A DNA stretch of 64,000 nt, taken from Rhodothermales bacterium (GTDB lineage Bacteria > Bacteroidota > Rhodothermia > Rhodothermales > JANQRZ01). Below, one piece after another: positions 2,401 through 31,753 of this stretch. The stretch is from positions 246,227 through 310,226 of the forward strand of contig CBDCBW010000015.1 in assembly GCA_965214485.1 (NCBI GenBank). Reading direction: 5' to 3'. Within the stretch, counting starts at the first letter, position 1; every line of letters begins with the position of its first letter. Made by a program: the position numbers and the translations under genes. The notes under the pieces are model-generated. The model had not been told where the DNA came from, ran no database searches, and saw only the letters and a list, made by a program, of their open reading frames with translations.

Positions 2401-2784
2401 GGGGATGTTTTGGATTCGACGGAGCGATCGTGCGGCAGGTTGCGTGCCGGGTGGTTCTCAGTACGCCCGTAACCCACGCTGAGAAACCTGATAACTGCGA
2501 ACGATTACTCGTACGCGATGGCGGCTTAAAGCCCCCATCTGTCTCCTGATTGGCCCGCTTATCGGCCTTTCCTGAGGCATCGACTCAGATAAGCTAGCCG
2601 CCTAGGCTCCGGCTGAGCCGAAGCGGCAAAAAGGGGCGAAAGCTCCACATCAGCCTGCGCTCCTGCGGAAGCCCTGTTCGTGGGCTGGGCCGCCGGGGCA
2701 AAGACTCCAATACGCGGACTACGCATGTAGACGCCTGGACTGTAGCTCGCTTCGGACCCGGGTTCGACCCCCGGCATCTCCACC
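2401..2784 (+). ncRNA. ssrA: tmRNA; tag peptide ANDYSYAMAA encoded at 2497-2529
   Basis: 5' GGGGATGTTTTGGATTCGAC; 3' GGTTCGACCCCCGGCATCTCCACC tRNA-like end; internal tag reading frame ending AA-stop. Confidence 0.97.
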
Positions 2785-2791
2785 TGATCGT

Positions 2792-6823: not shown

Positions 6824-8621
6824 CGGTTCATCCCCACGCGTGTGGGGAAAGGTGCGACAACATGCTCGCTAGCTTCGACCGCTACGGTTCATCCCCACGC
6901 GTGTGGGGAAAGGGACGTTCCGGCCCCGCGCTTATCGACGACGACCGGTTCATCCCCACGCGTGTGGGGAAAGGTCCGGGTCGTAGTCGATCCCGGCCCG
7001 GCTCTCCGGTTCATCCCCACGCGTGTGGGGAAAGGATCTGTACCGCCGCGTCGCTCGGCCCATCCTTCGGTTCATCCCCACGCGTGTGGGGAAAGGACCG
7101 TGCGGCCGGCGCGCCTCGGCCAGATGAGCGGTTCATCCCCACGCGTGTGGGGAAAGGTGTCCCCTCGCCATGTCCTCATGCCGCGTCCTCGGTTCATCCC
7201 CACGCGTGTGGGGAAAGGTTGCGCGGCTTCGCTGTCCGTCCGGTCCACCGCGGTTCATCCCCACGCGTGTGGGGAAAGGGCGGGGAACTGGAATTGGCAC
7301 TGCGGCATGGCCGGTTCATCCCCACGCGTGTGGGGAAAGGGCATAACCCGCCGCTGGAGCCGACACAGGGCTCGGTTCATCCCCACGCGTGTGGGGAAAG
7401 GAAGGGCTACGGGAGGTTGGGCTTCTTGCGCGCCGGTTCATCCCCACGCGTGTGGGGAAAGGCAGGCGGCCAAGCAGGGTCGGACGCAGGGATACGGTTC
7501 ATCCCCACGCGTGTGGGGAAAGGTCCACGCTATGAGCGTTCTCAACCATCCTGGCCGGTTCATCCCCACGCGTGTGGGGAAAGGTCGGATGTCAACCTCA
7601 CCGTGATCGCGCAAAGCGGTTCATCCCCACGCGTGTGGGGAAAGGTACGACACCGGGCGAAACCACGACGCCATCGACGGTTCATCCCCACGCGTGTGGG
7701 GAAAGGCTGCACGCCGCTGGACCCCGAACCCTTGACGCCGGTTCATCCCCACGCGTGTGGGGAAAGGAGGGCCTCGGCGATGAAGTGGGCGTCCTCGTGC
7801 GGTTCATCCCCACGCGTGTGGGGAAAGGAGCGTCGTAGGTCTTGTCGTACCTCTTTACCCAGGTTCATCCCCACGCGTGTGGGGAAAGGGCGCGGATCGC
7901 GGGCACCGTCGAGCGTGTGCCCGGTTCATCCCCACGCGTGTGGGGAAAGGTCGTTGAACGCTGACGTGCGGTTCTCGTGCTGCGGTTCATCCCCACGCGT
8001 GTGGGGAAAGGAAACCCGTTCAAGATCGGCGAGAGGGCCTCCTCGGTTCATCCCCACGCGTGTGGGGAAAGGCGCCGCCCGTGGATGTACGCCTCGGCCT
8101 TGCGCGGTTCATCCCCACGCGTGTGGGGAAAGGGTCGCCACGCGTACCGTAAGGGCGAGCACGGTCGGTTCATCCCCACGCGTGTGGGGAAAGGTCCTTG
8201 TGCGTGACGGGGTGCAGCGCGTCCACCGGTTCATCCCCACGCGTGTGGGGAAAGGAAGCGGAAGATCGTAGGGGCCTACACCGATGTCGGTTCATCCCCA
8301 CGCGTGTGGGGAAAGGATCCGAGCCTCGATGCGTGCGATGTGCGGTCCCGGTTCATCCCCACGCGTGTGGGGAAAGGTTTGTCCACTCGCGCCTGCACAA
8401 GTTCTACCCCGGTTCATCCCCACGCGTGTGGGGAAAGGGAGGGTCAGAAAGCCCGGCGAGCCGGTAATGGCGGTTCATCCCCACGCGTGTGGGGAAAGGG
8501 GAGGCATGATCCGACTCCGACACCTGGAGCGCGGTTCATCCCCACGCGTGTGGGGAAAGGCACGCCGACAGCACGCTCTACGGTCTCATCTACGGTTCAT
8601 CCCCACGCGTGTGGGGAAAGG
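6824..8621 (-). CRISPR. Type I-E CRISPR array 1: 30 repeats (CCTTTCCCCACACGCGTGGGGATGAACCG on minus strand), 29 spacers of 32 bp
   Basis: Exact 61-bp periodicity from 6824 to 8593; orientation from the ATGAACCG 5' handle and the leader next to cas6e. Confidence 0.99.
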
Positions 8622-8715
8622 ACTAAAAGCTACGCCAGAAACGCAGCATTTCAAAGAACAGACCGCTTTAAGGGGGACGCTCCCCTTCGCCTATCTGGAC
8701 GCCAAATGTCCCGCT
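8622..8715 (-). promoter_or_regulatory. Leader of array 1, containing an operator-like motif at 8695-8713
   Basis: Shares TGTTCyTTGA (-39) and TTTTAGT (-7) with the array-2 leader at identical spacing. Confidence 0.8.
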
Positions 8716-9384
8716 TTAGGCCGCTCGCGCCAGCGAGAGCAGCCCGAAGCCGAACGCCTTCGCCGGTCCGATCCCGCTGCGGACGGCATGGAGCAGCTTC
8801 TCAGGGTCTGCGACCGTCAGCACCCCGTCGAAGCGGACGCCGAAGAGGGGGAGCTCGCGCTTCTCGTACTCGCCCTTCTTCCGGCGGCGCGGCGCGAGGC
8901 GAAACGGTGCGTCTCGTGCGTCGAGTACGGCGAACCCGCACCGCTCGGCCTGCCGGTCTAGCCACTCGAAATAGGTCGGGTGCCCGGCGGCGTTGGGGGC
9001 GGCGTGGACGAGTGGGACGCGGCGACCGTTCTTCCTCCCCGGCGGCGTCTTGCACACCGTCGGGTTGGCGATGACCCGGAAGCGGAGGCGCTGGCCCTCA
9101 CTGAAGGCGGGGTCGAACGATTTGGGGCCGTCGAGTTGGAGTGCGTAGTCCCCCATCGCCTCGACGAATTCCCAATCCGGCCGCGTTGTCGAGGTCTGCA
9201 CGAGCACGGGGACGCCCTCGCCGCGCGCTTCGTCGGCCGGTTCGATGCGGAAGAGGAGGCGGTTCGCATCCGGCTCGCCGTCGGGGAAGGCGCGTTTCAG
9301 CGTCCGGTGAAGCTCGTAGGGCGTGGCGAGGTCGCGCCGTGCCTCCGGGTTCGCGGGGTTCAGCAACAGTCGGGTGAGGTACAT
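8716..9384 (-). CDS. cas6e: Cas6e (CasE/Cse3)
   Basis: MYLTRL, YELHR, LLFRIE, LRFRVIANP, GIGPAKAFGFGLLSL. Confidence 0.96.
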   Translation of the reverse strand: MYLTRLLLNPANPEARRDLATPYELHRTLKRAFPDGEPDANRLLFRIEPADEARGEGVPVLVQTSTTRPDWEFVEAMGDYALQLDGPKSFDPAFSEGQRLRFRVIANPTVCKTPPGRKNGRRVPLVHAAPNAAGHPTYFEWLDRQAERCGFAVLDARDAPFRLAPRRRKKGEYEKRELPLFGVRFDGVLTVADPEKLLHAVRSGIGPAKAFGFGLLSLARAA

Positions 9385-9387
9385 ACG

Positions 9388-10095
9388 TCAGGCGTCGATC
9401 AGAGGGAGATGTACGGTGACGACGGGCCGGGGCTGGAAACGACGGGCGGCGAAGTCGAGCGGGTCGTCGGCCGCGACGAGCTCATCCCGCCGATCCACGG
9501 TTCCATCCGGGAGCGCCGCGTCGGCGTCGAGCACAAAGCGGTAGCGGCCGTCGCGGGGTCGGTCGTGCCGGTTTCTACCGAGCGGCAGATCGGCGCGGCG
9601 CAGCGCGTCGGCGAGCGAAAACGGGACGACGGCGAGCGCGAGCGGGTGCGCGGGCGGGAATGCCTTCCGCCCGAGGAAGAGCGGCCAACGCGGGCGCAGG
9701 AGGGCACGGCGAATCTGCTCTAGCCGGTCGAGTCCGTCCGCCCTGTCCGTTTCCAGCCCGGCGGTGAAACAGGCGTCGGCGAGGTAGTAGCGGTCGGAGA
9801 CGATGACGTCGCCGCGCTCGACCTTCCCGCTCGCGCGGTAGAACCCCTCGCGGCCCGCCGTCTGGAAATCGCGGCGGACGCGGCCGGCCCGGTCCACGCG
9901 CACGCCGAAGCGGAGCGCAGCGAGGTCCGTGATGTCGGCTTCGCGCGGGCGACCGAGCGCGGCGGCGACGAGGCCGAGCACGCCGCTCTTCGTCGGCGTC
10001 GTGCGAGTCTCGCGGATGCCGAACTTGCTGTCGGTGCCCCACGCTTGCATCGGCCCGTCGAGCCGGAGGAGGAGCGTGTGGACGGGCTCAGGCAT
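9388..10095 (-). CDS. cas5e: Cas5e (CasD)
   Basis: LLLRLDGPMQAWG, PTKSGVLGLVAAALG, DFQT, RYYLADA, LFLGRK. Confidence 0.96.
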   Translation of the reverse strand: MPEPVHTLLLRLDGPMQAWGTDSKFGIRETRTTPTKSGVLGLVAAALGRPREADITDLAALRFGVRVDRAGRVRRDFQTAGREGFYRASGKVERGDVIVSDRYYLADACFTAGLETDRADGLDRLEQIRRALLRPRWPLFLGRKAFPPAHPLALAVVPFSLADALRRADLPLGRNRHDRPRDGRYRFVLDADAALPDGTVDRRDELVAADDPLDFAARRFQPRPVVTVHLPLIDA

Positions 10096-11335
10096 CGGCC
10101 GCCTCCATCGTCTCGACGACGCCGTCGATCACGGCGCGAACGCTCTCGCGCCAGGCATCGCCGAGCGGGTGCGGCTTGTCGGCAGCGGCGAGGGCGTCGC
10201 GGTGCGGGGTGCTGACGAACACGGCGGGAGCTTCTTCGTCCGGGAGGAGCCCGGCGTACATCGCCTCCATGTCGGCCCAGTGCCCGGCCAGCCGCTCGGC
10301 GGCGTGGTAGGCCATGCTCCGGCCGTTCGCGCGGACTGGGTCGGCGAAGGCGTTGACGAGCGAGAGCGGCATCCGGTCGTGGCGGACGACGGCGAGGACA
10401 AGCTCGGGGCGGACCTGGGCGGCGAAGCTGTTCTGCTTCCCGCTCGGGAGCGCAGTCACGGCAGCGGTGAGGAAGGCGCGGACCGTGTCGCGCGCGGCTT
10501 GGCGGTCGCCGTCGAGGTTTTTGGCGAGGGCGTCGGCGTCGATCACGGCGTAGCGGTAGTAGCAGGCCGCGTTGAACCCGGTCGTCCCGATCATGCCCGC
10601 CCCGGCGTCGTCGGCCTCGGCCGTGCTCTTGAGGTCGTCGACGGCCGTGAAATAGTCGAACTGCGGGGCGACGCGGTCCACGGAGAGCGCGTGGGCGACC
10701 TGGCAGGCGGCTTCAAGGTTGAGCTGGGGCTCCTCGGCGAGCATCCGCCCAAAGAGCGCGATGTCGGACGCTGAGGTCTTCCCCTTGTGCTCTTTGACGA
10801 AGTCCTTCACGACGGGCGTGACGGCTTTGCCGAGCGCCTTCTCGGCGTCGCTCACCGCCTTCGTCTGCTCCTTCGACGGCTTCTCCCCTTCCTCGGTCGG
10901 GAGGGCATCCTGCGCGTCGTGCAGCGCGGTCACCTCAGCACCGAGGCCGGCGTCGGCGAGGCGGCGGGCGAGGTCTTTCAGTTCGCCGTGGGCGGCGTAG
11001 TAGAGCACGCTCGTCTGATCCTTCTCGTCGAGCCCGCTGGCGAGGAGCGAGGTGACGGCGGCCCCTGCAAGCGTCCGTGCGGTGCCTGCGTCTACGCTGT
11101 GATCCTCGGAGAGCACGCGGACGAGGTACGGCACGGCGCGGCGCGTGCGGATGCCCACGCGCTGGGATACGATCCGGCGGAACACGTCGGACGTGCGGAT
11201 GGCGCGCTTGAGGCTCTGCGACGAGAGCCGGGCGCGACGGTGCCCACCGAACTCGGCGTCTTTCGGCGCGCCGGTGTCGTCGCGGTTGAGGTTGGCGGGC
11301 GGGACGGACTGGAGGAGGTGGAGTTCGATCTTCAT
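10088..11335 (-). CDS. cas7: Cas7 (CasC/Cse4)
   Basis: IELHLLQ..P.ANLNRDDTGAPK, RARLSSQSLKRAIR, DIALFGRM, DYFTAVDD, PSGKQNSFA. Confidence 0.97.
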   Translation of the reverse strand: MKIELHLLQSVPPANLNRDDTGAPKDAEFGGHRRARLSSQSLKRAIRTSDVFRRIVSQRVGIRTRRAVPYLVRVLSEDHSVDAGTARTLAGAAVTSLLASGLDEKDQTSVLYYAAHGELKDLARRLADAGLGAEVTALHDAQDALPTEEGEKPSKEQTKAVSDAEKALGKAVTPVVKDFVKEHKGKTSASDIALFGRMLAEEPQLNLEAACQVAHALSVDRVAPQFDYFTAVDDLKSTAEADDAGAGMIGTTGFNAACYYRYAVIDADALAKNLDGDRQAARDTVRAFLTAAVTALPSGKQNSFAAQVRPELVLAVVRHDRMPLSLVNAFADPVRANGRSMAYHAAERLAGHWADMEAMYAGLLPDEEAPAVFVSTPHRDALAAADKPHPLGDAWRESVRAVIDGVVETMEAADA

Positions 11336-11339
11336 GGCG

Positions 11340-11981
11340 TCAGTCGGTATCGGGTGAGGAGTGGTTGGAATCCGATGCTTCGGTGTCGAGCGTCGAGGGC
11401 CAGTAGTCGCGCGCCCAGCGCTGCTGCACGAAGCGGTCAGGGTGGTCCCACGCGAGCAGGTCGCGGAGGAGTTGAAAGAAATCGAGTGGGGCCTCGTGTG
11501 AGCGGAGCAGGCGGAGGAAGCGGCGGAGTTCGTCGGGTGCGTCTTCGAGCGGAAGCGCGAGGAGGGCCTGGAAGCGCCGGGTGATGCCCTCGTTCTCGTC
11601 CACGGCGTCGCCCTGCCCGCTCACCCGGCGGCCGTTGACGAGCCGCGCCGACGCGCCGAGCGAGCGCCGTCCCTTCTTCATCCGGGCTGTCTCGGGCATC
11701 GCGGAGCCACCGGCAGCGTAGATACCGAAGAGCTCAGCGGTGAGGAGGTAGGCGTTGAGCGCGTCGCCGCGTGCGTCGTCGGGGACGTGCTGGCCGACGA
11801 TGCGGAGCGCGCCGTAGCGCCCGGCCGGGTTCGCGGCGGAGCGGCGGAGCTCGGCGAGCGCGGCGCGGGCGGTGCCGTCGTCAGGCGCTCGTTTGACGAG
11901 TCCGTGGAGGTGCCCGATGAAGGTCTTCACGGGATCACGCTCGTCAGTCGGTTCTGGAGATGCGGTTGCGGATTCAGGCAT
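11340..11981 (-). CDS. cse2: Cas11 (CasB/Cse2)
   Basis: ALAELRRS, RRFQALL, LDFFQLLRDLLAW...VQQRWARDYW; ATG at 11981 overlaps the cas8e stop. Confidence 0.92.
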   Translation of the reverse strand: MPESATASPEPTDERDPVKTFIGHLHGLVKRAPDDGTARAALAELRRSAANPAGRYGALRIVGQHVPDDARGDALNAYLLTAELFGIYAAGGSAMPETARMKKGRRSLGASARLVNGRRVSGQGDAVDENEGITRRFQALLALPLEDAPDELRRFLRLLRSHEAPLDFFQLLRDLLAWDHPDRFVQQRWARDYWPSTLDTEASDSNHSSPDTD

Positions 11982-13617
11982 CGGCGGGTTCGGATTCGCG
12001 GAGGAGGTCAACGTAGGCTTTGGCAGGTCGGAGGGCGTTGCGGCCTCGGGCGACGGCTTCGAGCCGTCGGGGCGAGGTGACGAAGTCGCGCGTGGCCTCG
12101 TCGTAGGCCTGCATTGCGGCGCGGTGGAGCGTCCGGGTCCAGCGGGCGAGGTGAACGCGGAGCGCGTCTGTTGTGTCGTCCGATAGCTTTTCGGTCTGCA
12201 CTTCTCCGGGATTGGGAATCGCAGCGAGGTCACCTAGCCACTCCTCGAAGCCCGGCTCGTGCTGGCCGCCGAAGAGGAAGCCGGTCTCGAGCCACGTCCA
12301 GAACCGCTCTTCGGCTTGCAGCCCCTCCGCCCTCGTGCGGACGTCCTCGGGTTTGCCCGGCGCGAGCGTCGCGGCGAAGGTGCGGAGCGCCCGCCGCAAC
12401 GACTGCATCTGCCGGTCGGCGCGCTGCACGGCTTCGTCCACGGCCTCCTGCAGCGGTTGCAGCCGGAGCACGGCCGGGAAGAGCGGCGTCCGCTCGTGGC
12501 GGATCAGTTCCATCTTCGCCTTGCTGTTGGCGAGGCCGAACACGTCCACGGTCTCGGCGCGGCCTTCTACCTCGCCGCCGAACGCGCGCCACGCGGCGAG
12601 CGCCGCGAACGTGCGCGGTGGGTAGCCGACGTTTTTGCTTTCGAGCTTCAGCCCGAGCCAGACCGGAGCGCGCCGCCAGAGCGCGACGCCGGGTTGCAGC
12701 TTGAACGGGTAGACCTCTTCCTTTTTGGAGATGCGGTACGCCATGAGCGGATCGCGCGCCGCCGACACCCACTTCGGGCCGCTCCGCAGGTGGACGTCCG
12801 TCACCACGACTTCGCCGTCTTGCTCCTCGGCGACGAGCCGGACGTGACGCGACTGCCAGGTGAGGTAGTCGAGATACCCCAACTCGGGCCGGTCGTCGTC
12901 GCCGGGGAGCGGACGTTCCCACGCGGGCGCGTCGCCCTCGGGCGAGTCGAGGCGCGCGAACGATGCGGCCGGGGTATTGAGCAGAAGTGCCTCGAACAGG
13001 TTCTCGCCCCGAATCCAGAACACGAGGCCGGAGACGAGCGGGCCTTCCTGATAGCTCGGGCGACCGGGGCCAGCGAGTCCGCCGAGGCTGTAGACGTGTG
13101 CCGCGAGGAGGGCGCGGGCCGCTTCGGCCGGCGTGAGCGGACCGTTCGCGGTGTCGCGCGTGTGGTCGAAGAGGGTTTCGTTGTTGCCCTTCGCCCGCGT
13201 TGGGGTCAGCCACGAGAGCGGGCCGGTGTTGGGCGTCGCGGGGTCGGGATGGCCGTAGAACGGGCGCTCGGGGTGGAAGAGATCGAAGCGCGGCGGGTCG
13301 GCGGCCTCGCTCTGCCAGCGGTCGAAGTAGGCGTTGACGTGCCCGGCGTCGAACTGCTCGGCGTCCCACAGTTTTTGCCACGCCGTGCGGGTCCAGCCTT
13401 CGTCGTCGTCGGCGTCCTCGGGGTGGACGTGGAGCCGGACGAAGAGGGCTTGCAGGAGGCGGTAGATCGCCACGGTTTCGAGCGGGCTCGGCGCGGCGAC
13501 CTCGGCGATCCGGTGCGCCCCGGCGAGCGCATCGCGCAGCCCGACGGCGGATTCGCCGCTCTCGCCCTCGGTCCAGCGGACGGGAATCCACGGTTCAGTC
13601 GTGAGGTCGTAGGTCAT
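11974..13617 (-). CDS. cas8e: Cas8e (CasA/Cse1)
   Basis: MTYDLTTEPWIPVR, RFDLFHPERPFY, NNETLFDH, GENLFEALLLN, YLTWQSR, DPLMAY. Confidence 0.95.
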   Translation of the reverse strand: MTYDLTTEPWIPVRWTEGESGESAVGLRDALAGAHRIAEVAAPSPLETVAIYRLLQALFVRLHVHPEDADDDEGWTRTAWQKLWDAEQFDAGHVNAYFDRWQSEAADPPRFDLFHPERPFYGHPDPATPNTGPLSWLTPTRAKGNNETLFDHTRDTANGPLTPAEAARALLAAHVYSLGGLAGPGRPSYQEGPLVSGLVFWIRGENLFEALLLNTPAASFARLDSPEGDAPAWERPLPGDDDRPELGYLDYLTWQSRHVRLVAEEQDGEVVVTDVHLRSGPKWVSAARDPLMAYRISKKEEVYPFKLQPGVALWRRAPVWLGLKLESKNVGYPPRTFAALAAWRAFGGEVEGRAETVDVFGLANSKAKMELIRHERTPLFPAVLRLQPLQEAVDEAVQRADRQMQSLRRALRTFAATLAPGKPEDVRTRAEGLQAEERFWTWLETGFLFGGQHEPGFEEWLGDLAAIPNPGEVQTEKLSDDTTDALRVHLARWTRTLHRAAMQAYDEATRDFVTSPRRLEAVARGRNALRPAKAYVDLLRESEPADA

Positions 13618-16523
13618 CGGTCGAAAAGTCGGTCGGGGTCGTAGACGAGGCCGAGGTCGGGGTCGAGCACGAGGGTGGTGCCGCCGAGCGTGCAGCGGGG
13701 AGGCCCGGCATCGCCGTGCTCGAAAACGACGGCGTGATGATACGCGAGCGCGGAGACTCGCTCGGTTGCTTTCGACCACCACGTAGCCGTCCCTGCATCT
13801 GCCCCGGCAGTCCCGTCGGCACGGAGCGCCCGGACGACGCTCGCGCGGCTGAGCCGGACGCCGCGCCGGAGCAGATTCCGCACGTCCTCGATGGGCAGAG
13901 CGGAGTCGGGAGCCGGAGCGTCGGGCAGCGGCGCGGTGCCGTCGAGCGTCACACGTCCGTCTCGCTTCACGAGACAGACGATTTCGACGGAGTCGCGGCC
14001 GAGCCGGGTGACGGGCCGGAAGTCACGGGCGGGCGCGTCGTCGTGCTCGTCGTAGGCGGAGCGGTCAGCGGTTTCGGCGAAGCTGACGAGTTCGCAGAGG
14101 TCTTCCGGCGCGTCGATACGAGCGTCGCGGGCGTGGGTGGTCTGATTCTTCGTCAGCGTGTCGCGGTCGTTCACGGCTCCGGTCCAGCGAGCGCGGTCGG
14201 ACTCGGAGAGGTCGGGCGGCGGGCTGTCGGTGCCGGGTCCGTAGACGGCTTCGATGAGCGGCCGATAATCGCGCGGGAGGTGCCACGCGCGGCGTTTGCG
14301 GAGGAGCCGGACCGTCTTGAAGAGCGGGAGGCTGAGGTAGACGGCGCGAAGGTCGTCTTTCAGCTTGCCTTCTTCGCGCTGCCCGCCAATCGGGGCGAGG
14401 TCCGGGAGGTCGTCCGCGTCGGGGTTCGGGCAGAGGACGACGAGGCGCGGGCGCTCGAAACCGGCGGGGCGCTCCAGCTCGTGGCGGTGCATCCGCCCGG
14501 CGCGCTGGAGCAGGAGGTCTACGGGGGCGAGGTCGGTCAGCAACACGTCCACATCGAGATCGAGGCTCTGCTCGGCCACCTGTGTGGCGACGAGCACGGC
14601 CGGGCGCTCGCCGAACTCCTCGCGCCGTCGCTTCCCGAACCGCCCCGGCGTCTCGCCCTCGCCCACGACGCGGTGCTCGCGGGCCTGCCGCTCGGCGAAC
14701 GGGAAGCGAGCGTGGAGGAGCACGAGGTCGGCATCGAGTCCGGCCTCGTCCAGGAGGGAAAAGACGCGCTGTGCCCGGTCCACGAGGTTGACGATCACCC
14801 CGACCGTCGCTCCCCGCTTCACGAAGCCGACGATCTGCTCCACGACGCCGTGCTCGTCGCTGTCGGCGAAGTCGATCTCCGTCTCTCCCGTCCGCTCGGT
14901 GCGTTCGGCCTGCACCGTGTCGAACGGGCCGAGGACACGGGCGCTCGCCTCGGCCCCGGCGACGGTCACGGCGGGATAGACTCCGGCCTCGTCCTCCGGC
15001 GGCTTCGCGCCCCACGCTTTCAGAAGCCGGCGGCGCATCACAGCGGGCAGCGTCGCCGAGAGCACGACGACGTCGCAGTCGAGTGCGCGGAGCCACCGGA
15101 GGAGCCGCTCGAAGAGCGCGGTCATGTACGTGTCGTAGGCGTGGACCTCGTCGAAGACGACGACTTTCCCGGCGAGACCGTAGAGCCGGAGGAAGAAGTG
15201 CCGCGAGACGAGCGCGCCGAGGAGCGCCTGATCGACGGTGCCGACGCCGTAAGGCGCGAGCAGGCCGCGCTTGCTCGGCAGAAACCAGCGGGCGGCGTAG
15301 ACCACAGAGCCGTCGGCCTCGTCGCGGTCCTGCGGTTCGAGGAGCCGGTCGAGGTCGGCGTTGAGCCCGCTCGCGCCGTGGACGAGTTGGACGTTCGCCG
15401 CGCTGTCTGTCGCCATGTCGAGAAAGCGGAGAAAGCGGGGGAAGAGACCGTTCGACGTGGCCTGCGTCGGGAGGGCGACGTAGACGCCGCGCCCTCCGTC
15501 GGCGCGCCGGGTTTGGAGGCGGGCGGCAAGGTGGAACGCCGCTTCGCTCTTCCCCTCGCCCGTCGGAGCCTCGACGATCACGAGCGCCGGGCCGTCCGGC
15601 ACCTCGAGGTCGGCCGTCGTCCGTTGCAGCGCACGTGGCGCGGCGGTCGGGTTGTCGTCGAAAACTTCGGGGAAGCAGGTGCGGAAGCCGTCTTCGCCGT
15701 CTTCCGCGTGGAGGGCACCCCGGTCGCCGAGCTTTGTTTTAGCGAGCGCACGCTGGGCGGCCTTCCGGCTCGCGGGGAGGTACGCCGCGAGGTCGTCGTA
15801 GTTCGCTGCGTTCGCGGGCATCAACTCGGCCATCGAGCCGACCCAGTCAGCGAGCGTGGTCCAGCCCGCCACGGCGAGGAGGTCGGGCGGAAAGGCATAC
15901 GGCCCGACGCGGGCCTCCGGCGTGCCGCCGAGCGCGGGCCAGCCGCCGTGCGCCCGCATCCACGCCTCGGCCACGGCCGCGACGAGCGCCTGCTGCTCGC
16001 GCTTCCAGTCCGCATCGCCGAGCGCGGTCTCGGAGGTCCACTCCGTCACCGCGTCGAGCCGCCCGTGGTGGAAGCCGACGAACGCCGCGAGCGAGCGGAG
16101 CAGCGAGCGGGTCGGGCTGTCGGGGAGCACATCCACCCATCCCAGCAGGATCGGGATCGAGGCGTGCCCGTGGTGCCTTAACTCGTCGGCCCGCCCGAAC
16201 GAAAGGCCCGCCGCTTCCAGCATCGACCGGCTCGGGTCGTGCTGGCTCTGGAACGACGGGATCGCCTTGCCCGCGTCGTGGAGGCCGACGACAAGCGCGA
16301 AGAGCGCGCCGGCCTGCTCTTCCGTTTCTTCTGTAAAACCAAACTGCCGCGCGAGGCGCGCCCGGACCGGCGCGGGCAGTCGCTCGAAAAGGAGCTCAGC
16401 TACGCACGCCACGTCGAGAAGATGCGCCCACAGCGGGTGCGTCCACGCATCGCCGCGACCGAGATCGCCGTAGCGGTCAGTTTTCGCCCAGAAGCGTCGC
16501 CACGTAGGTTCGGGAGAGGTCAT
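13614..16523 (-). CDS. cas3: Cas3 HD nuclease-helicase
   Basis: WAKT, HLLDVA, LHDAGK, FHHG, ADWVGS, APTGEGKS, DEVH, LSATL, QRAGRMHRH; ATG 16523 preferred over 16562. Confidence 0.97.
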   Translation of the reverse strand: MTSPEPTWRRFWAKTDRYGDLGRGDAWTHPLWAHLLDVACVAELLFERLPAPVRARLARQFGFTEETEEQAGALFALVVGLHDAGKAIPSFQSQHDPSRSMLEAAGLSFGRADELRHHGHASIPILLGWVDVLPDSPTRSLLRSLAAFVGFHHGRLDAVTEWTSETALGDADWKREQQALVAAVAEAWMRAHGGWPALGGTPEARVGPYAFPPDLLAVAGWTTLADWVGSMAELMPANAANYDDLAAYLPASRKAAQRALAKTKLGDRGALHAEDGEDGFRTCFPEVFDDNPTAAPRALQRTTADLEVPDGPALVIVEAPTGEGKSEAAFHLAARLQTRRADGGRGVYVALPTQATSNGLFPRFLRFLDMATDSAANVQLVHGASGLNADLDRLLEPQDRDEADGSVVYAARWFLPSKRGLLAPYGVGTVDQALLGALVSRHFFLRLYGLAGKVVVFDEVHAYDTYMTALFERLLRWLRALDCDVVVLSATLPAVMRRRLLKAWGAKPPEDEAGVYPAVTVAGAEASARVLGPFDTVQAERTERTGETEIDFADSDEHGVVEQIVGFVKRGATVGVIVNLVDRAQRVFSLLDEAGLDADLVLLHARFPFAERQAREHRVVGEGETPGRFGKRRREEFGERPAVLVATQVAEQSLDLDVDVLLTDLAPVDLLLQRAGRMHRHELERPAGFERPRLVVLCPNPDADDLPDLAPIGGQREEGKLKDDLRAVYLSLPLFKTVRLLRKRRAWHLPRDYRPLIEAVYGPGTDSPPPDLSESDRARWTGAVNDRDTLTKNQTTHARDARIDAPEDLCELVSFAETADRSAYDEHDDAPARDFRPVTRLGRDSVEIVCLVKRDGRVTLDGTAPLPDAPAPDSALPIEDVRNLLRRGVRLSRASVVRALRADGTAGADAGTATWWSKATERVSALAYHHAVVFEHGDAGPPRCTLGGTTLVLDPDLGLVYDPDRLFDR

Positions 16524-16554
16524 GCCGCTAGGATAGAGAGAGGCACCGTCGAAC

Positions 16555-16573
16555 CGGGACATTCGGCGTCCAG
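16555..16573. promoter_or_regulatory. Quasi-palindromic operator-like motif upstream of cas3
   Basis: CGGGACATTCGGCGTCCAG, 18/19 identical to the reverse complement of 8695-8713. Confidence 0.6.
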
Positions 16574-17082: not shown

Positions 17083-17469
17083 TCAGGTAGCTCCCCCCTC
17101 TACTACTTCCCACACCGTCGCGACGAACCGCTCGGCGTCGGCGAGGAGGTTGGCGGCGGCGTTCATGTCTGTTGTGGCGAGGGCGTCGTAGTCGGCGCGC
17201 TCGCGGACCTGGGCGGCGTGAGGGAGGGTCCGGGCGATGTCCTCGGGAACGCGGCCCGTGGCGACGAACAGGAGCGCGAAGCGGTTGTGCACGCCGCTGT
17301 GCGTCTTGGGCTGCTCGCCTTCCCCGGCGAGGGCGGCTCGGGCCAGGTTGAAGCAGGCGTAGTAGGCTCGGTTGGTAGCAAGCTCCGCGTCGCCGCTATC
17401 GAGTACGCGGCGGGCGGACTCCAGCGCGCGCTCCCCCTTCGCGACGAGGGCCGTTTGGAGCTCGGTCAT
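17083..17469 (-). CDS. HEPN domain protein (UPF0332-like)
   Basis: ATNRAYYACF, KTHSGV, RERADY. Confidence 0.9.
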   Translation of the reverse strand: MTELQTALVAKGERALESARRVLDSGDAELATNRAYYACFNLARAALAGEGEQPKTHSGVHNRFALLFVATGRVPEDIARTLPHAAQVRERADYDALATTDMNAAANLLADAERFVATVWEVVEGGAT

Positions 17470-17810
17470 AGCACGACGCCGTCGTCGGCGACGCTGTACA
17501 TGAGGGGGCGGTCGAGGTCGGCGGCCTCGGCGACGCTGTACGGCTGCATCGAGACGTCGACCCCGTGCCGGATGGAGAGACCGAGCCGGAGCGTACTGAT
17601 CCTCTTGCCCTCGGTGTACGGTTCGACCTCGCCGCGGAGGACGACGAGGAGGTCCACGTCGGAGTCGGGCCGGGCGTCGCCGCGGGCGTGGGAGCCGTAG
17701 AGCACGACGCGGTCGAGGCGGTCGCCGTACATCTCCGTGAGCCGCGCCTTCGCTTCGGCGAGGGCGGCGCGGACGTTCTCCGGCATCGTCTCGGGGAGCG
17801 TCAGGGTCAT
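17466..17810 (-). CDS. Minimal nucleotidyltransferase (MNT)
   Basis: LYGSHARGDARPDSDVDLLVV. Confidence 0.92.
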   Translation of the reverse strand: MTLTLPETMPENVRAALAEAKARLTEMYGDRLDRVVLYGSHARGDARPDSDVDLLVVLRGEVEPYTEGKRISTLRLGLSIRHGVDVSMQPYSVAEAADLDRPLMYSVADDGVVL

Positions 17811-18208
17811 AGCGGGAGCGCGGGCGGTCTCTCTTCTTCGACTAGTCTACGGACGGCGATTACGAAGTGCTTTACATCGGCCAGAATCTCGGCCGCCACG
17901 TCGGAGTCTAGCTCGGCGAAGGTGTCGTAGTCAGCCTGCTCTCGGGCGTCGAGGGCGACCTTGAGGGCCGTGGCGACCGTGGTGTCGAGGACACCCAGTT
18001 TTACGAAGTGGAAGTAGAAGCGGTGGAGCGTACCGCTGTGCGTCTTCGGGGATTCACCCCGACCGAGAAGCGCCGCCGAAGCGGCGTAGTAGGCTCCGTA
18101 GTAGACCCGGTTGACGGCCGAGAGGGGGTCGCCGGCATCCAGCAGGAGGCGAGCGGCTCGGAGAACGCGCTCAGCCCGAGCGAAGAGCGCCGCCTGCTCC
18201 GCAGTCAT
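17807..18208 (-). CDS. HEPN domain protein (UPF0332-like)
   Basis: AVNRVYYGAY, KTHSG, REQADY. Confidence 0.9.
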   Translation of the reverse strand: MTAEQAALFARAERVLRAARLLLDAGDPLSAVNRVYYGAYYAASAALLGRGESPKTHSGTLHRFYFHFVKLGVLDTTVATALKVALDAREQADYDTFAELDSDVAAEILADVKHFVIAVRRLVEEERPPALPL

Positions 18209-18561
18209 AGCACGACGCCCTCGGCGCGGACGGTGTTGGTGAACGTGCGCGTGCGGTCGTCGTAGCCTCGCCTTGCGAGCGGGTGGACCGAGACAAGCGC
18301 CCCGTAGCGGCCGAGCAGGTCCAGCGAGAACGGGGCCAGGTGACGAATCTCGGCCAGCGCGTTGACCTCGCCCCGGAGGACGACGAGGAGGTCTACGTCG
18401 GAGTCGTCGCGGGCGTCGCCGCGGGCGTGGGAGCCGTAGAGCACGAGCCGGTCGAGGCGCTCGCCGTAGAGCTCGGTGAGCCGCACTTTCGCCTCGGCGA
18501 GGGCGGCGCGGACGTGAGGCGGCATCGTCGCGGGGAGCGTGTCGGGGAGCGCAGTCGGCAT
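18205..18561 (-). CDS. Minimal nucleotidyltransferase (MNT)
   Basis: LYGSHARGDARDDSDVDLLVV. Confidence 0.92.
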   Translation of the reverse strand: MPTALPDTLPATMPPHVRAALAEAKVRLTELYGERLDRLVLYGSHARGDARDDSDVDLLVVLRGEVNALAEIRHLAPFSLDLLGRYGALVSVHPLARRGYDDRTRTFTNTVRAEGVVL

Positions 18562-18570
18562 AGCGTCAAC

Positions 18571-19602
18571 TTACGGCAGGTTCTGATACGCCTGGACGGC
18601 CTCGGCAGCGTCGGCGGCGAGGCGGTCGGCTAGCTCGGGCGGGCTGAGGGCGAGAACGGCCGGGCCCCAGCTCGCCACGAAGGCACGGACCTCGTCGAGC
18701 GCGTCGCCGCCGGGGGCGCGGTACGTCACATCAAGCCCACCGTCGGCCCGCTCTTCGATGGCCTGGCTCGGGTGGTAGCGGTGGGAGCGGAAGTGGACGG
18801 CGCAGCGGGGATGCACCCGCAGGCGGACCTCGACGGGCGGACCGCCCTCAAAGACGCCGAAGCGCCCGGCGAAGTACGTCCGTGCGTCGAAGCCCTCGGG
18901 CGGCGCGAAGTACCGCTCGACGGGCCGGACGTTCGAGATGCGGGCGAAGCTGAAGTCGCGGACGGCGCGGCGGGTGTGGCAGTAGGCGATGAGGTACCAC
19001 CGGTTGCGGACGGGGGCGACGACGAGAGGGTCCACCTCGCGCCCGAACGAGCGCTTGCCGCGCTTGTTGACGTAGTCCATCCGGATGCGCCGGCGCTCGC
19101 GCTTGGCGCGGTTGAGCGGGGTGAAGACGGCGGGGTCGGGCGGGGCGGTGCGGAGCGCGCCGAAGTGCCAGTGGGCGGCCTCAGCCTGGGGGTCGAAGGT
19201 GAAGAGCTCGTCGGCGGCGTCGAGGTCGGCGGTGGCGGCGAGGAGGGCCCCGAAGCCGCGCCGGAGCGGGGCCTCGAGCGGCGTCCCGGCGAGCGCAGCC
19301 GCGGCGGCCTCGGCGGCGACGGTGAGGGCGAGGAGGGCCTCTTCATCGAGCCCGTCGAGGACGAGCCCACGGCGCTGGTGTTCGGCCGGCAGGAAGAACC
19401 GCTTGGCCCGGGGGTTGGCCGGGTCGGGTTCGTCGGCCACGGGGAGGCCCGCCGCCCGGAGCCTCTGGACGAGCCGGCGCGCGTGGCGCGGGTCGCAGCC
19501 GAGGCGCTCGGCCATGGCGCGGCGGGTAAGGCGCTCGTCGCGGTCGAAGAGGCTGCGGAGGCGGCGGGCCGTGGGGGGCAAGAGGTCGGCGTCGGGGTCC
19601 AT
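18571..19602 (-). CDS. WYL-domain transcriptional regulator (wHTH-WYL-WCX, YafY-like)
   Basis: N-terminal HTH; REVDP...RWYLIAYCHTR..VRDF..ARI; C-terminal SWGPAVLALSPPEL. Confidence 0.93.
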   Translation of the reverse strand: MDPDADLLPPTARRLRSLFDRDERLTRRAMAERLGCDPRHARRLVQRLRAAGLPVADEPDPANPRAKRFFLPAEHQRRGLVLDGLDEEALLALTVAAEAAAAALAGTPLEAPLRRGFGALLAATADLDAADELFTFDPQAEAAHWHFGALRTAPPDPAVFTPLNRAKRERRRIRMDYVNKRGKRSFGREVDPLVVAPVRNRWYLIAYCHTRRAVRDFSFARISNVRPVERYFAPPEGFDARTYFAGRFGVFEGGPPVEVRLRVHPRCAVHFRSHRYHPSQAIEERADGGLDVTYRAPGGDALDEVRAFVASWGPAVLALSPPELADRLAADAAEAVQAYQNLP

Positions 19603-19929: not shown

Positions 19930-20235
19930 TCACGGGTCCGGCTCGGCGTCCGGCAGTGGGGGGCGGCGGGCGAGCCACACGCCGTCGAACTCCTCGACGT
20001 AGCGCCCGCGCGGGTTGGCCGCCCGCACGTCGAACCCCTGCGCGGTGTTCGTCTGCCACAGGAGCAGGGCCGACGCCCCATCGGCGACCGCCTGCTCGGC
20101 GATGCGCTCCCAGAGCTGATCCCGGACGAGCCGGCTGAGCCGCCCGACGAAGACGCCCGCGGCGACCTCCATCATCCACCGGCTGAGGTCGCCGCGCAGG
20201 CCGGGGGCAGTGCGTTCGAGGACGAGAACGGTCAT
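19930..20235 (-). CDS. cas2: Cas2 (type I-E)
   Basis: MTVLVLE..PGLRGDLSRWMMEVAAGVFVG...VRDQLW...QGF...FDGVWL. Confidence 0.95.
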   Translation of the reverse strand: MTVLVLERTAPGLRGDLSRWMMEVAAGVFVGRLSRLVRDQLWERIAEQAVADGASALLLWQTNTAQGFDVRAANPRGRYVEEFDGVWLARRPPLPDAEPDP

Positions 20236-20375
20236 CGGGAGTGGGAGGCGCGCGCGTGGAAAGGGAGAGTGGAACCGGCGGAGCTAACCGAGGCGGATCG
20301 CAACGCGTCGGCGCTCCGTCGCCCACCTTCCTACCCCGTCGCTTCACGTCGGTGCCTCAGTCTGACGTCCGTGTT

Positions 20376-21401
20376 TCAGTCTTGGGCGGGGCCGTCCGGG
20401 GTGAGGTCGGGGAAGGGGTCCGGGGCAGGCGGCGGGCGCTCGCCGTAGGCCCCGTCGCCGAGCGAGAGCGTGGCCTCCGGGGGCGGGTCCCACCACGCGG
20501 TCGGGTGGGCGAAGTCGTCGTCGGGGTCGAAGCGCTCGGGGAGGGGCGCGCTCGGGTCGAGGTCGAGCACGGCCCGGATGTCGGGGATGATGCGCTCGAG
20601 GATGCGGAGGTTGCGGAACGCCCGGCGGCAGCGGATGCGGACCGTCCGCTCGAGCTGGAAGGGCTCGCCGGCGGCTTCGGCGTCCCGGGCCTCGGCGGCC
20701 GTGGCGAAGGCGACGGGCACCGTGAGCTCGGTCTTGTAGAGGTCGGCAATGTCGTAGACGAAGGCGAGCTGCTTGCCCTGGTGGATGAAGCCGAGGCCTG
20801 GCGCGTAGCCCGCCGAGACGACCGCCGCGTGGCAGACGCCGCTGAGGCAGGCGTTGGCCGCGCTGAGGGCGCGGTTGAGCGGGTCGGCGGCGTCCCAGTC
20901 CCCCCGGTCGTAGTCCCGCCCGGCCCAGTCCAGCCCGTAGGACGCCGCCGCCCGGCGGTACGTCGCGCGGACGCGGGCCCCTTCGTGCCCTCGGACCTGC
21001 TCGATGGTGAGGTTCGGCGGCAGGGTTTCGTAGAACCGGAGCCGGTACATCCGCTCGACCACGCGGAGGCGCTGCTCGGGGTCGCTCGCGGCCTCGGCCT
21101 GGCGCTGCAGGGCGTACGCCTTGCGCGTCTCGCCGTGCCCGTGCGCGTAGAACCGGACGCCCTCCTGCCCGACCCAGAGCAGCGAGCACCCGGACTTCGA
21201 GGTGGTCACCACGGCCCGGTGGGTGACGGAGACGCCGGGGCCGAGCAGAAGCGCGCACAGGTTGGCGACCGGGACGGCGATCCGGCCGAGCTTGTTCTCG
21301 AACTCGACGCCGTTCTTTGTCTGGGTGAGCCGCCCCCGTTCGAGGTAGAGCGTCGGCAGGCTGTCGCGGAGTTTGGGGAGGGCGCGTAGATTCTCAGGCA
21401 T
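20376..21401 (-). CDS. cas1: Cas1 (type I-E)
   Basis: LLLGPGVSVTH, WVGQEGVRFYA, VRGHEGARVR, LGFIH, FVYDIADLYK; ATG at 21401. Confidence 0.97.
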   Translation of the reverse strand: MPENLRALPKLRDSLPTLYLERGRLTQTKNGVEFENKLGRIAVPVANLCALLLGPGVSVTHRAVVTTSKSGCSLLWVGQEGVRFYAHGHGETRKAYALQRQAEAASDPEQRLRVVERMYRLRFYETLPPNLTIEQVRGHEGARVRATYRRAAASYGLDWAGRDYDRGDWDAADPLNRALSAANACLSGVCHAAVVSAGYAPGLGFIHQGKQLAFVYDIADLYKTELTVPVAFATAAEARDAEAAGEPFQLERTVRIRCRRAFRNLRILERIIPDIRAVLDLDPSAPLPERFDPDDDFAHPTAWWDPPPEATLSLGDGAYGERPPPAPDPFPDLTPDGPAQD

Positions 21402-21549: not shown

Positions 21550-22250
21550 CCTTTCCCCACGCCCGTGGGGATGAACCGACCTCGCGGGGCGTGAGGCCCC
21601 CCAACTCCGACCTTTCCCCACGCCCGTGGGGATGAACCGGTGACGCGCAAGTGGGGCCGCTGGCAGCACCACCTTTCCCCACGCCCGTGGGGATGAACCG
21701 GAGGTGACGCCCCCCGAGACGTGGGGCCAGCACCTTTCCCCACGCCCGTGGGGATGAACCGTGATAAAAGGGGTAGGACATGCCCTGTTAGCTCCTTTCC
21801 CCACGCCCGTGGGGATGAACCGACATGGGTTTCCGCCGCAGCCATTCCTAGCCCCCTTTCCCCACGCCCGTGGGGATGAACCGTCGGGCGGAGGCGCGCA
21901 TGCCTGACGGCCTTCCCTTTCCCCACGCCCGTGGGGATGAACCGCTCACCGTGTCCCGCGCCGACGGCGCCGACGGCCCTTTCCCCACGCCCGTGGGGAT
22001 GAACCGGCGCGGAACGCCTTCGCGCTCTACCGCGGACGCCTTTCCCCACGCCCGTGGGGATGAACCGGCGAGGAGCGTGGGGTTCACGGCCTCTACGAAC
22101 CTTTCCCCACGCCCGTGGGGATGAACCGAGGAAGGTTCGCGCCTCGCGGTCGAGGTTCTGCCTTTCCCCACGCCCGTGGGGATGAACCGCGCTCGTTCGT
22201 CCGGTCGATGTCCTGCTGGAACCTTTCCCCACGCCCGTGGGGATGAACCG
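21550..22250 (+). CRISPR. Type I-E CRISPR array 2: 12 repeats (CCTTTCCCCACGCCCGTGGGGATGAACCG), 11 spacers of 32-33 bp
   Basis: Repeat starts from 21550 to 22222 at 61-62 bp spacing. Confidence 0.99.
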
Positions 22251-22327: not shown

Positions 22328-22401
22328 CGCGCCGGGGAGGATTCGAACCCCCGACCTTCGCATCCGTAGTGCGACGCTCTATCCAGCTGAGCTACCGGCG
22401 C
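22328..22401 (-). tRNA. tRNA-Arg (ACG)
   Basis: GCGCCGG acceptor, TAGCTCAGCTGGATAGAGC D arm, TCGCA-CTACGGA-TGCGA anticodon arm, GGTTCGAATCC; CCA not encoded. Confidence 0.97.
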
Positions 22402-26424: not shown

Positions 26425-26546
26425 GTATAACAAATGGCCGCGGCGGCGCAGGGAGCCGCGACAGTGGAACGGGTTGAAGAGCATAACGGCGCTCGCGCGA
26501 GGCAAGACCGTGCAGTCCTGCGTCGGCCTTCAGCGGCGGGTTATGT
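26425..26546 (-). mobile_element. Integron attC site A
   Basis: Minus strand: R'' ACATAAC-CCGCC-L'' GCTGAAG ... R' GTTATAC; homologous to sites B and C. Confidence 0.75.
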
Positions 26547-26556
26547 GGCCGAGATG

Positions 26557-27288: not shown

Positions 27289-27305
27289 AGCGTGGAGGGT
27301 AGGCC

Positions 27306-27429
27306 ACATAACAGAGGGCCGCTCACCCGCGAAGGGCAGCGCGGCGGTGGGACGAAGCAAAGTAGACGCTGAGGCTCGGACGAGGCAAGGCCGTTCAGCC
27401 CTTCGTCGGTGTGCAGCCACGGGTTATAC
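27306..27429 (-). mobile_element. Integron attC site B
   Basis: R'' GTATAAC-CCGTG-GCTGCAC ... GTGAGC-GGCCCTCT-R' GTTATGT; extrahelical G in L''; stop codon of the preceding gene lies in R''. Confidence 0.85.
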
Positions 27430-28132: not shown

Positions 28133-28256
28133 GTATAACAGTTGACCGCTCATCCACCAAGGGCGACGCGGCGGTAGTGCGAGGCAAGGTAGACGCCGAG
28201 GCTCGGACGAGGTAAGACCGTGCAGCCCTTCGTCGGCGTGCAGCGGCGGGTTATGC
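28133..28256 (-). mobile_element. Integron attC site C
   Basis: R'' GCATAAC-CCGCC-GCTGCAC ... GATGAGC-GGTCAACT-R' GTTATAC. Confidence 0.85.
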
Positions 28257-29063: not shown

Positions 29064-29095
29064 TCCTCGGGTTCCTTGTGCCACATAACCAGTGA

Positions 29096-29841: not shown

Positions 29842-29863
29842 CCAGTGATTATACAGATTGGGG

Positions 29864-31614: not shown

Positions 31615-31749
31615 ATTCCCTCCATTCCCTCCATTCCCTCCATTCCCTCCATTCCCTCCATTCCCTCCATTCCCTCCATTCCCTCCATTCCCTCCATTCC
31701 CTCCATTCCCTCCATTCCCTCCATTCCCTCCATTCCCTCCATTCCCTCC
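31615..31749. repeat. Tandem repeat (ATTCCCTCC) x15
   Basis: Perfect 9-bp units between rfbA and rfbC. Confidence 0.98.
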
Positions 31750-31753
31750 ACGC

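What the first reader, a model, noticed from the sequence alone, without database searches (positions are those of the whole stretch)
7341..7372. CRISPR spacer derived from an integron attC site
Seen: spacer GCATAACCCGCCGCTGGAGCCGACACAGGGCT (9th from the left, 21st from the leader) has the R''-spacer-L'' layout of an attC. It aligns to attC-C (28224-28256) at 29/32 with one gap, including a 16-nt exact run, and to attC-A at about 28/32. The local site has mismatches at crRNA positions 7-8 and a TGC flank instead of an AAG-type PAM, so direct self-cleavage here is unlikely (based on known I-E seed and PAM rules). Inference: the system acquired a spacer from a sibling cassette (excised circle, incoming array or self). 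CRISPR may therefore filter cassette traffic or prime against a whole attC family.
Basis: partly seen in the sequence, partly recalled or inferred. Interest (0 to 1): 0.8.

Follow-up and report, generated by a model that had tools for sequence, protein, structure and literature searches.

The report
CRISPR spacer copied from integron site
One memory unit in this bacterium's CRISPR immune array was copied from the folded recombination site that ends integron gene cassettes, which is a rare record of CRISPR meeting the gene-capture system, but nothing shows that it does more than sit there.

Summary
Window 7341-7372 is a 32-nt spacer, 21st from the leader, in a complete type I-E CRISPR-Cas locus. 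It is homologous to one arm of the host's own integron attC family. That family has 54 copies in the genome and a true IntI on another contig. Its fold is supported by covariation.

The best resident match is 31/32 with a 1-nt gap, on contig C3. The three sites in the window reach at most 29/32. The other 39 spacers reach at most 22 identities. Only this spacer hits an attC profile (14.7 bits against at most 3.4 in 4000 shuffles).

I found no perfect protospacer in the genome, GTDB representatives, JGI metagenomes, IMG/VR, phages or plasmids. The spacer has a rare "short-arm" form, seen in 1 of 54 resident sites and in a few foreign ones. The donor was therefore an unsampled sibling attC, either foreign or since lost.

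The crRNA has bottom-strand sense, so it can pair only with duplex attC. No resident site combines an intact seed with a PAM known to support interference, so self-cleavage is unlikely. "Cassette filtering" and family-wide priming remain untested. I found no recurrence in relatives. This is an unusual but ordinary-acting spacer of moderate interest.

The parts
7341..7372 (-). The spacer (21st from the leader). The crRNA sense is the reverse complement of the + strand. It is homologous to the L''-R'' arm of the attC bottom strand.
7312..7340 (-). I-E-type repeat on the trailer side of the spacer
7373..7401 (-). I-E-type repeat on the leader side. In crRNA sense it ends in ...GATGAACCG, so the base at -1 is G.
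6824..8621 (-). CRISPR array 1: 30 repeats and 29 spacers of 32 nt, transcribed on the - strand
8622..8715 (-). A+T-richer leader between cas6e and array 1
   Evidence: sequence read directly
8716..16562 (-). Interference genes: cas6e 8716-9384, cas5 9388-10095, cas7 10088-11335, cse2 11340-12233, presumed cse1 12230-13591 (no family hit), cas3 13614-16562
19930..21401 (-). Adaptation genes: cas2e 19930-20235 and cas1e 20376-21401
   Evidence: Cas1e 359 bits against a cut-off of 215.6; Cas2e 65 bits against 33
21550..22250 (+). CRISPR array 2: 12 repeats and 11 spacers, with a variant repeat loop
26425..26547 (+). attC-A (bottom strand on +), the last site of a three-site cassette cluster without an integrase. 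Its spacer-like arm is 26514-26546.
27305..27429 (+). attC-B, with the spacer-like arm at 27397-27429
28133..28256 (+). attC-C, with the spacer-like arm at 28224-28256 (29/32 with one gap; TGC flank)

Best explanation
This is a genuine type I-E spacer that Cas1e-Cas2e cut out of an integron attC recombination site. The piece runs from the base of the variable loop through the L'' stem and the 2-nt central spacer to the R'' core. The donor site belonged to the same attC family that fills the host's own integron arrays. It was a variant with one bulged base fewer, and no such matching copy is present in the genome today. The most likely donor is therefore incoming duplex DNA that carried cassettes, such as a plasmid, an ICE, a phage or transforming DNA from a related bacterium. 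A resident cassette that has since been lost is the other possibility.

The crRNA has the sense of the attC bottom strand. It would pair with the top strand of a duplex attC and displace the bottom strand, and it cannot pair with a single-stranded bottom-strand intermediate. Every resident attC differs from the spacer by an indel, by seed mismatches or by a non-AAG flank. The spacer is therefore tolerated, and it is most likely a passive memory, not a dedicated control of cassette traffic.

Shown: homology to the attC arm, the attC identity and fold of the family, a complete I-E system, and the absence of a perfect target. Inferred: the source of the spacer, the strand logic of targeting, and the escape of the resident sites.
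For: - Homology to attC: the best resident match is 31/32 with a 1-nt gap at C3:80056-80088. Only this spacer hits the attC profile.
- The family is a real attC family. There are 54 nhmmer hits in nine clusters, six of them directly upstream of intI and divergent from it (IntI 413.7 bits against a cut-off of 265).
- The fold is supported on 50 copies. 93.2% of cells are paired against 82.2% in shuffles and 33-45% when the partner is slid. 14 of 23 pairs show changes on both sides, and 0 of 500 shuffles reach the observed values. All three bulges lie on the 3' arm of the + strand, and a G-U pair occurs in 47 of 50 copies. Together these mark the + strand as the folding (bottom) strand.
- The I-E system is complete, with Cas1e and Cas2e.
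- The spacer is exactly 32 nt and its last base still matches attC. The missing base was therefore in the donor and is not a later deletion in the array.
- The same short form GTCGGCTCCAGCGG occurs in natural attC sites elsewhere (L027, L059). Among resident sites it occurs once in 54, in a site that matches the spacer at only 24/32.
- In E. coli fewer than 50% of naive acquisitions come from AAG (PMC6568314, passages). A non-AAG donor flank is therefore not unusual.
Against: - I found no perfect protospacer anywhere, so the donor, its PAM and its context are unknown.
- The closest sequence of all is resident (C3, 31/32 with a gap), which fits a self origin as well as a foreign one.
- Within the attC family there is a conserved AAG 8-9 nt upstream, and canonical adaptation would have used it. 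The observed register was not predicted.
- This is a single case. There is no recurrence in 285 genomes of the order for the same orientation, or in 10 genomes of the family for the opposite orientation.
Confidence: 0.65

Rival explanations
1. Self-derived spacer. Cas1-Cas2 took the piece from one of the host's own cassettes, for example after breakage at a folded attC. The matching cassette was then lost or selected against, and only mismatched siblings remain.
For: The best match anywhere is resident (C3:80056-80088, 31/32 with a gap, perfect positions 1-13, G at -1 as in the array). The genome holds 54 sites of the family and an intact IntI able to delete cassettes.
Against: 52 of 54 resident sites have the long arm. 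The one short-arm site matches the spacer at only 24/32. None of the other 39 spacers is self-derived. The attC sites make up only about 0.2% of the genome (my estimate from 54 sites of about 130 nt in 3.74 Mb).
Confidence: 0.2
2. Functional guard. Through partial matches, the crRNA primes adaptation against, or interferes with, any incoming element that carries this widely shared attC arm, and so limits cassette traffic.
For: The arm motif is shared by 68 sites in 55 loci from several phyla. In E. coli I-E, poorly interfering targets can prime efficiently (PMC6568314, passages).
Against: None of 207 family sites has a full match. Only 6 of 207 have an intact seed, and none of those has an AAG, AGG, ATG, GAG or TAG flank. 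There are no primed-looking sister spacers from cassettes. There is no recurrence in relatives. The spacer is old, 21st of 29.
Confidence: 0.1
3. Chance resemblance. The spacer comes from an unrelated phage or plasmid sequence.
For: No perfect protospacer is known. One IMG/VR contig has the 14-nt core inside an ORF.
Against: That viral site matches at only 16/32 ungapped. The profile score is 14.7 bits against at most 3.4 in 4000 shuffles. The 31/32 match is collinear with the attC arm from end to end.
Confidence: 0.03

Closest known systems
Spacers of type I-E arrays taken from mobile elements or from the host's own chromosome (E. coli K-12 model)
   Same: A 32-nt spacer between 29-nt repeats, with a PAM-derived G as the last repeat base in 39 of 40 cases. 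Cas1e-Cas2e, Cascade and Cas3 are present. A spacer with imperfect chromosomal matches is tolerated.
   Different: The source is the structured recombination site of integron cassettes, which none of my three literature searches found described. The homologous flanks are not AAG.
Integron attC sites of sedentary chromosomal integrons and integrase-less attC clusters (CALINs), such as the VCRs of Vibrio cholerae (the comparison is recalled, not taken from a call)
   Same: About 125-nt imperfect palindromes with AAC/GTT cores, a covarying stem, bulges on one arm only and an asymmetric central spacer. Arrays lie next to IntI, and further arrays lie elsewhere in the genome.
   Different: Here one arm of such a site sits inside a CRISPR array as a spacer. 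The window's own three sites have no integrase beside them.
Engineered CRISPR or CRISPRi directed at class 1 integrons (PMC7038292; bioRxiv 10.1101/2025.03.28.645910; search listing only)
   Same: A CRISPR guide is aimed at an integron component.
   Different: Those guides are designed and clinical. This spacer is natural, sits in an environmental Rhodothermales-type bacterium, and is aimed at attC.

Membership tests
Integron attC site (the repeat family that the spacer matches) | Inverted core boxes ending in AAC and beginning with GTT (R boxes) | tested here: met
   In 50 copies the pairs A-T, A-T and C-G of ATAAC/GTTAT hold in 50, 47 and 48 of 50.
Integron attC site (the repeat family that the spacer matches) | Imperfect palindrome whose stem is kept by compensatory changes | tested here: met
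   14 of 23 pairs have changes on both sides. 93.2% of cells are paired against 82.2% in shuffles (0 of 500 reach the observed value) and 33-45% when slid.
Integron attC site (the repeat family that the spacer matches) | Extrahelical bases on one arm and an asymmetric unpaired central spacer, which mark the recombining strand | tested here: met
   The three unpaired positions all lie on the 3' arm of the + strand. There are 5-6 nt against 2 nt between the R and L boxes. A G-U pair occurs in 47 of 50 copies. That the bulges mark the double-prime arm of the bottom strand is recalled knowledge.
Integron attC site (the repeat family that the spacer matches) | An array next to an integron integrase (IntI) and divergent from it | tested here: met
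   IntI at C17:309098-310054 scores 413.7 bits against a cut-off of 265. Six sites lie at C17:302434-308486 in the divergent orientation. The window's three sites have no IntI within 64 kb, so they form a CALIN.
Integron attC site (the repeat family that the spacer matches) | Sites bound short gene cassettes in one orientation | tested here: met
   The window sites are spaced 883 and 827 nt apart, with the ORFs between them on the - strand.
Integron attC site (the repeat family that the spacer matches) | Recombination by IntI; a score with the IntegronFinder attC model | not testable with these tools
   Rfam holds no attC family.
Type I-E CRISPR spacer | A 32-nt unit between 29-nt I-E repeats in an array with a leader | tested here: met
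Type I-E CRISPR spacer | Cas1e-Cas2e, Cascade and Cas3 encoded beside the array | tested here: met
   The presumed cse1 (12230-13591) matched no Pfam or NCBIfam model.
Type I-E CRISPR spacer | A matching protospacer with an AAG-type PAM | tested here: inconclusive
   No perfect protospacer was found. None of the homologous flanks in 54 resident sites is AAG, AGG, ATG or GAG.

The most novel reading that the evidence does not exclude
CRISPR-Cas and the integron interact functionally. A crRNA against the conserved, cross-phylum L''-R'' arm of attC lets Cascade recognise duplex attC sites on incoming cassette-bearing DNA, by priming or interference. Alternatively, Cascade binds resident attC sites without cutting and modulates their recombination. 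Folded attC sites would then be a preferred source of prespacers.
Probability: 0.08. Interest if true: 0.8.

Novelty: new member of a known kind. Interest (0 to 1): 0.42.

Why it matters
Integrons and CRISPR-Cas are two major systems that decide which foreign DNA a bacterium keeps, and no natural cross-talk between them turned up in my literature searches. This spacer shows that attC DNA can enter a CRISPR array. It also gives a concrete pair of sequences (the spacer and the attC variants) for testing two things: whether type I-E immunity can restrict or prime on cassette-bearing elements, and whether resident attC sites escape by bulges and by their flanking bases. A single spacer proves no function. 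The value lies in motivating a screen of spacer collections with attC models.

Tried and rejected
- A fuzzy regex scan of the whole genome timed out. I replaced it with nhmmer and pairwise alignment.
- Exact 23-mer scans gave 0 hits in genome contigs and 0 in IMG/VR. JGI metagenomes gave 1 hit, L059, which is an attC in a low-GC contig at only 25/32.
- The degenerate pattern in IMG/VR gave one hit inside a 454-aa ORF of L079. It matches at 16/32 ungapped and is not an attC.
- BLAST of the spacer against plasmids (best E 0.2) and phages (best E 0.9) gave nothing significant.
- Searches with up to 3 mismatches found only the spacer itself, in 10 genomes of the family and in 32 genomes of the order (G000 plus the 31 at least 99% complete). 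I set the completeness filter to shorten the output, so most of the order's 285 genomes were not searched this way.
- I tried to learn the system's PAM from other spacers. One 26-nt spacer prefix gave 0 hits in IMG/VR. The whole array against phages gave no match.
- Sequencing runs: no RNA holder is listed. The four small-share runs lie on the repeats only (7250-7278 and 7433-7522), and none covers 7341-7372.
- Possible second attC-like spacer: the newest spacer (8561-8592) is 24/32 to an attC arm shifted 17 nt, and 1 of 200 shuffles reaches that score. It gets no hit with the attC profile, so I rejected it as not significant.
- I considered that the spacer is the complement of the 5' arm, captured from a folded hairpin. 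I rejected this because it carries the 2-nt central spacer of the 3' arm.
- Relatives' I-E arrays share repeats but no spacers, so the acquisition could not be dated.

Full report
**Observation.** Window 7341-7372 holds the quoted 32-nt sequence between two perfect 29-nt repeats. It is part of an array of 30 repeats and 29 spacers with a 61-nt period at 6824-8621. Read on the - strand, the repeat is CCTTTCCCCACACGCGTGGGGATGAACCG, which has the layout of type I-E repeats. The array is therefore transcribed on the - strand from an A+T-richer leader (8622-8715) next to cas6e. The spacer is the 9th from the left and the 21st from the leader. Its reverse complement (crRNA sense) aligns to window 28224-28256 at 29/32 with one gap and a 16-nt exact run. 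It aligns to the site ending at 26546 at 28/32 with one gap.

**Is it more than chance?** Yes, by three controls.
- The 16-mer with up to 3 mismatches occurs 5 times in the window against 0.86 expected.
- Among the genome's 40 type I-E spacers, only this one has a strong match elsewhere in the genome (31 identities). The best of the other 39 is 22.
- Against a profile built from 207 copies of the repeat family, only this spacer scores (14.7 bits). The best of 4000 shuffled spacers scores 3.4 bits.

**The CRISPR-Cas system.** All parts of a type I-E system lie on the - strand:
- cas1e at 20376-21401, 359 bits against a cut-off of 215.6.
- cas2e at 19930-20235.
- cas3 at 13614-16562.
- a 453-aa gene in the cse1 position (12230-13591) that matched no Pfam or NCBIfam model.
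- cse2, cas7, cas5 and cas6e.

A WYL regulator and HEPN-containing modules sit between cas2 and cas3. A second, smaller array (21550-22250, + strand) diverges from cas1. In 39 of the 40 spacers the preceding repeat ends in G, and in one it ends in T. This suggests that the last repeat base is copied from the protospacer flank, as in E. coli (the E. coli comparison is recalled).

**What the spacer matches.** nhmmer with the three window copies finds 54 copies of an approximately 130-nt repeat in the 3.74-Mb genome, in nine clusters:

| Location | Copies |
|---|---|
| C3 | 18 |
| C15, 70 kb beyond the window | 12 |
| C17, around 405-413 kb | 7 |
| C17:302434-308486 | 6 |
| C17, around 11-19 kb | 3 |
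| the window | 3 |
| C15, around 87 kb | 2 |
| C9 | 2 |
| C13 | 1 |

The genome encodes one true integron integrase, at C17:309098-310054 (413.7 bits against a cut-off of 265). The six-site cluster lies immediately upstream of it and divergent from it.

An alignment of 50 copies shows the following:
- ATAAC and GTTAT cores.
- A 5-6 nt against 2 nt asymmetric central spacer.
- An 18-bp stem and a variable loop.
- 93.2% of cells paired, against 82.2% in column shuffles (0 of 500 reach the observed value) and 33-45% when the partner is slid.
- 14 of 23 pairs with changes on both sides.
- All three unpaired stem positions on the 3' arm of the + strand.
- One pair that is G-U in 47 of 50 copies.

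These are the defining features of attC sites. The three window sites (26425-26547, 27305-27429, 28133-28256) bound small - strand cassettes and have no integrase nearby.

**Strand logic.** On C17 the cassettes read away from intI on the strand opposite to my model orientation. The bulges and the G-U pair also mark the model (window +) strand as the folding strand. The window + strand is therefore the attC bottom strand. The crRNA has bottom-strand sense and covers the arm from the loop base through L'' and the 2-nt spacer to R''. It could pair only with the top strand of a duplex attC. It could not pair with the single-stranded bottom-strand form that integrons recombine (that integrons use this form is recalled knowledge).

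**Where is the protospacer?** I did not find it.
- Own genome: the best match is C3:80056-80088, 31/32 with a 1-nt gap.
- GTDB representatives: no hit to an exact 23-mer.
- JGI metagenomes: one hit, L059, an attC in a low-GC contig at 25/32.
- IMG/VR: none.
- Plasmids and phages: nothing significant.
- Searches with up to 3 mismatches found only the spacer itself, in 10 genomes of the family and in 32 genomes of the order. The order search covered G000 and the 31 other genomes at least 99% complete.
- A degenerate pattern found 68 related attC arms in 55 loci. Most are from Rhodothermales, Rubrivirga and Rubricoccaceae. Others are from records labelled Longimicrobiaceae, Acidobacteriota, Chloroflexales, Phycisphaerae and more.
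- The best ungapped match is 28/32, in a Rubricoccaceae MAG (L014).

**The difference is informative.** The spacer reads GTCGGC-TCCAGCGG where 52 of 54 resident sites read GTCGG-NN-TNCAGCGG. It is one base shorter at a bulge and has C for G next to it. The spacer is exactly 32 nt and its last base still matches attC, so the donor already had the short form. That form exists in nature: L027 and L059 carry the identical 24-nt stretch. It occurs once among the resident sites, in the integrase-proximal one, which matches the spacer at only 24/32. The donor was therefore an unsampled sibling attC. A foreign origin and a lost resident cassette cannot be told apart with these data. I put them at about 0.65 and 0.2.

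**Can it attack the host?** At the homologous position, the 54 resident sites show the following:
- None has an AAG, AGG, ATG or GAG flank.
- Two have TAG, but each has 2 seed mismatches.
- Two have an intact seed, but with a TGG flank and the 1-nt bulge.

In E. coli, 17 of 64 PAMs interfere (AAG, ATG, AGG, GAG, TAG and CAG among them), 36 are inert, fewer than 50% of naive acquisitions use AAG, and 14% use non-functional PAMs (PMC6568314, passages). The classes of TGG, TGC, TTC and TCG are in figures that I could not see. The seed rule (positions 1-5, 7 and 8) is recalled. By these rules self-cleavage is unlikely. This is an inference from another organism's system.

**Function.** Nothing found here shows a role beyond memory. 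No other spacer matches the genome or 407 kb of cassette-rich loci from relatives. Of the 207 family sites, none is fully matched. Only 6 have an intact seed, and none of those has one of the five interfering PAMs checked (AAG, AGG, ATG, GAG, TAG). A pattern search for the attC core inside a spacer next to an I-E repeat end found only this spacer in 285 genomes of the order (same orientation), and none in 10 genomes of the family (opposite orientation). These searches were narrow: an exact 13-mer and I-E repeat ends only. The guard or priming idea stays open at low probability.

**Novelty.** Three full-text searches, with passages read in three papers, found engineered CRISPR directed at class 1 integrons but no natural attC-derived spacer. 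This is a new kind of source for an otherwise ordinary spacer.

Noticed in passing
window 29081-29852: An IS1595-family element (transposase 29143-29820, + strand; 28-nt inverted repeats at 29085-29112 and 29825-29852) sits exactly at a fourth attC-like core (ccacATAAC at 29081-29089). It cuts off the cassette cluster on that side.
   Followed up: partly
window 17083-19602: Between cas2 and cas3 lie a WYL/WCX regulator (18571-19602) and HEPN-containing small-gene modules. One stretch is duplicated at 86% identity (17610-17801 and 18349-18540).
   Followed up: partly
window 2401-2785 and 22328-22401: A tmRNA gene and a tRNA gene bracket the whole CRISPR-Cas region. The tRNA lies 78 nt after array 2, so the locus may sit on an island.
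   Followed up: no
window 31615-31759: A perfect 9-nt tandem repeat (ATTCCCTCC) of about 16 copies.
   Followed up: no
G000 C18:104923-107009 (L060): A second Cas1 (340 bits, in a 556-aa open frame) lies next to a third CRISPR array: 9 repeats of 37 nt ending in GATTGAAAC, with spacers of about 36-41 nt. By eye, none of its spacers carries the attC core.
   Followed up: partly
window 8561-8592 (newest spacer of array 1): It is 24/32 identical to an attC arm shifted 17 nt upstream, with exact collinear runs of 12 nt and 9 nt. One of 200 shuffles reaches this score, and it gets no hit with the attC profile. It is probably chance.
   Followed up: yes
L004-L058: The attC arm motif CAGCGGCGGGTTAT, preceded by GTCGG, is shared by integron-like sites in records labelled as several phyla. 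This points to a very widely exchanged or constrained attC type.
   Followed up: partly
window 26557-27288: The cassette between attC-A and attC-B encodes a protein with a type IX secretion C-terminal sorting domain. The two-gene cassettes on either side of attC-C matched no Pfam or NCBIfam family.
   Followed up: partly
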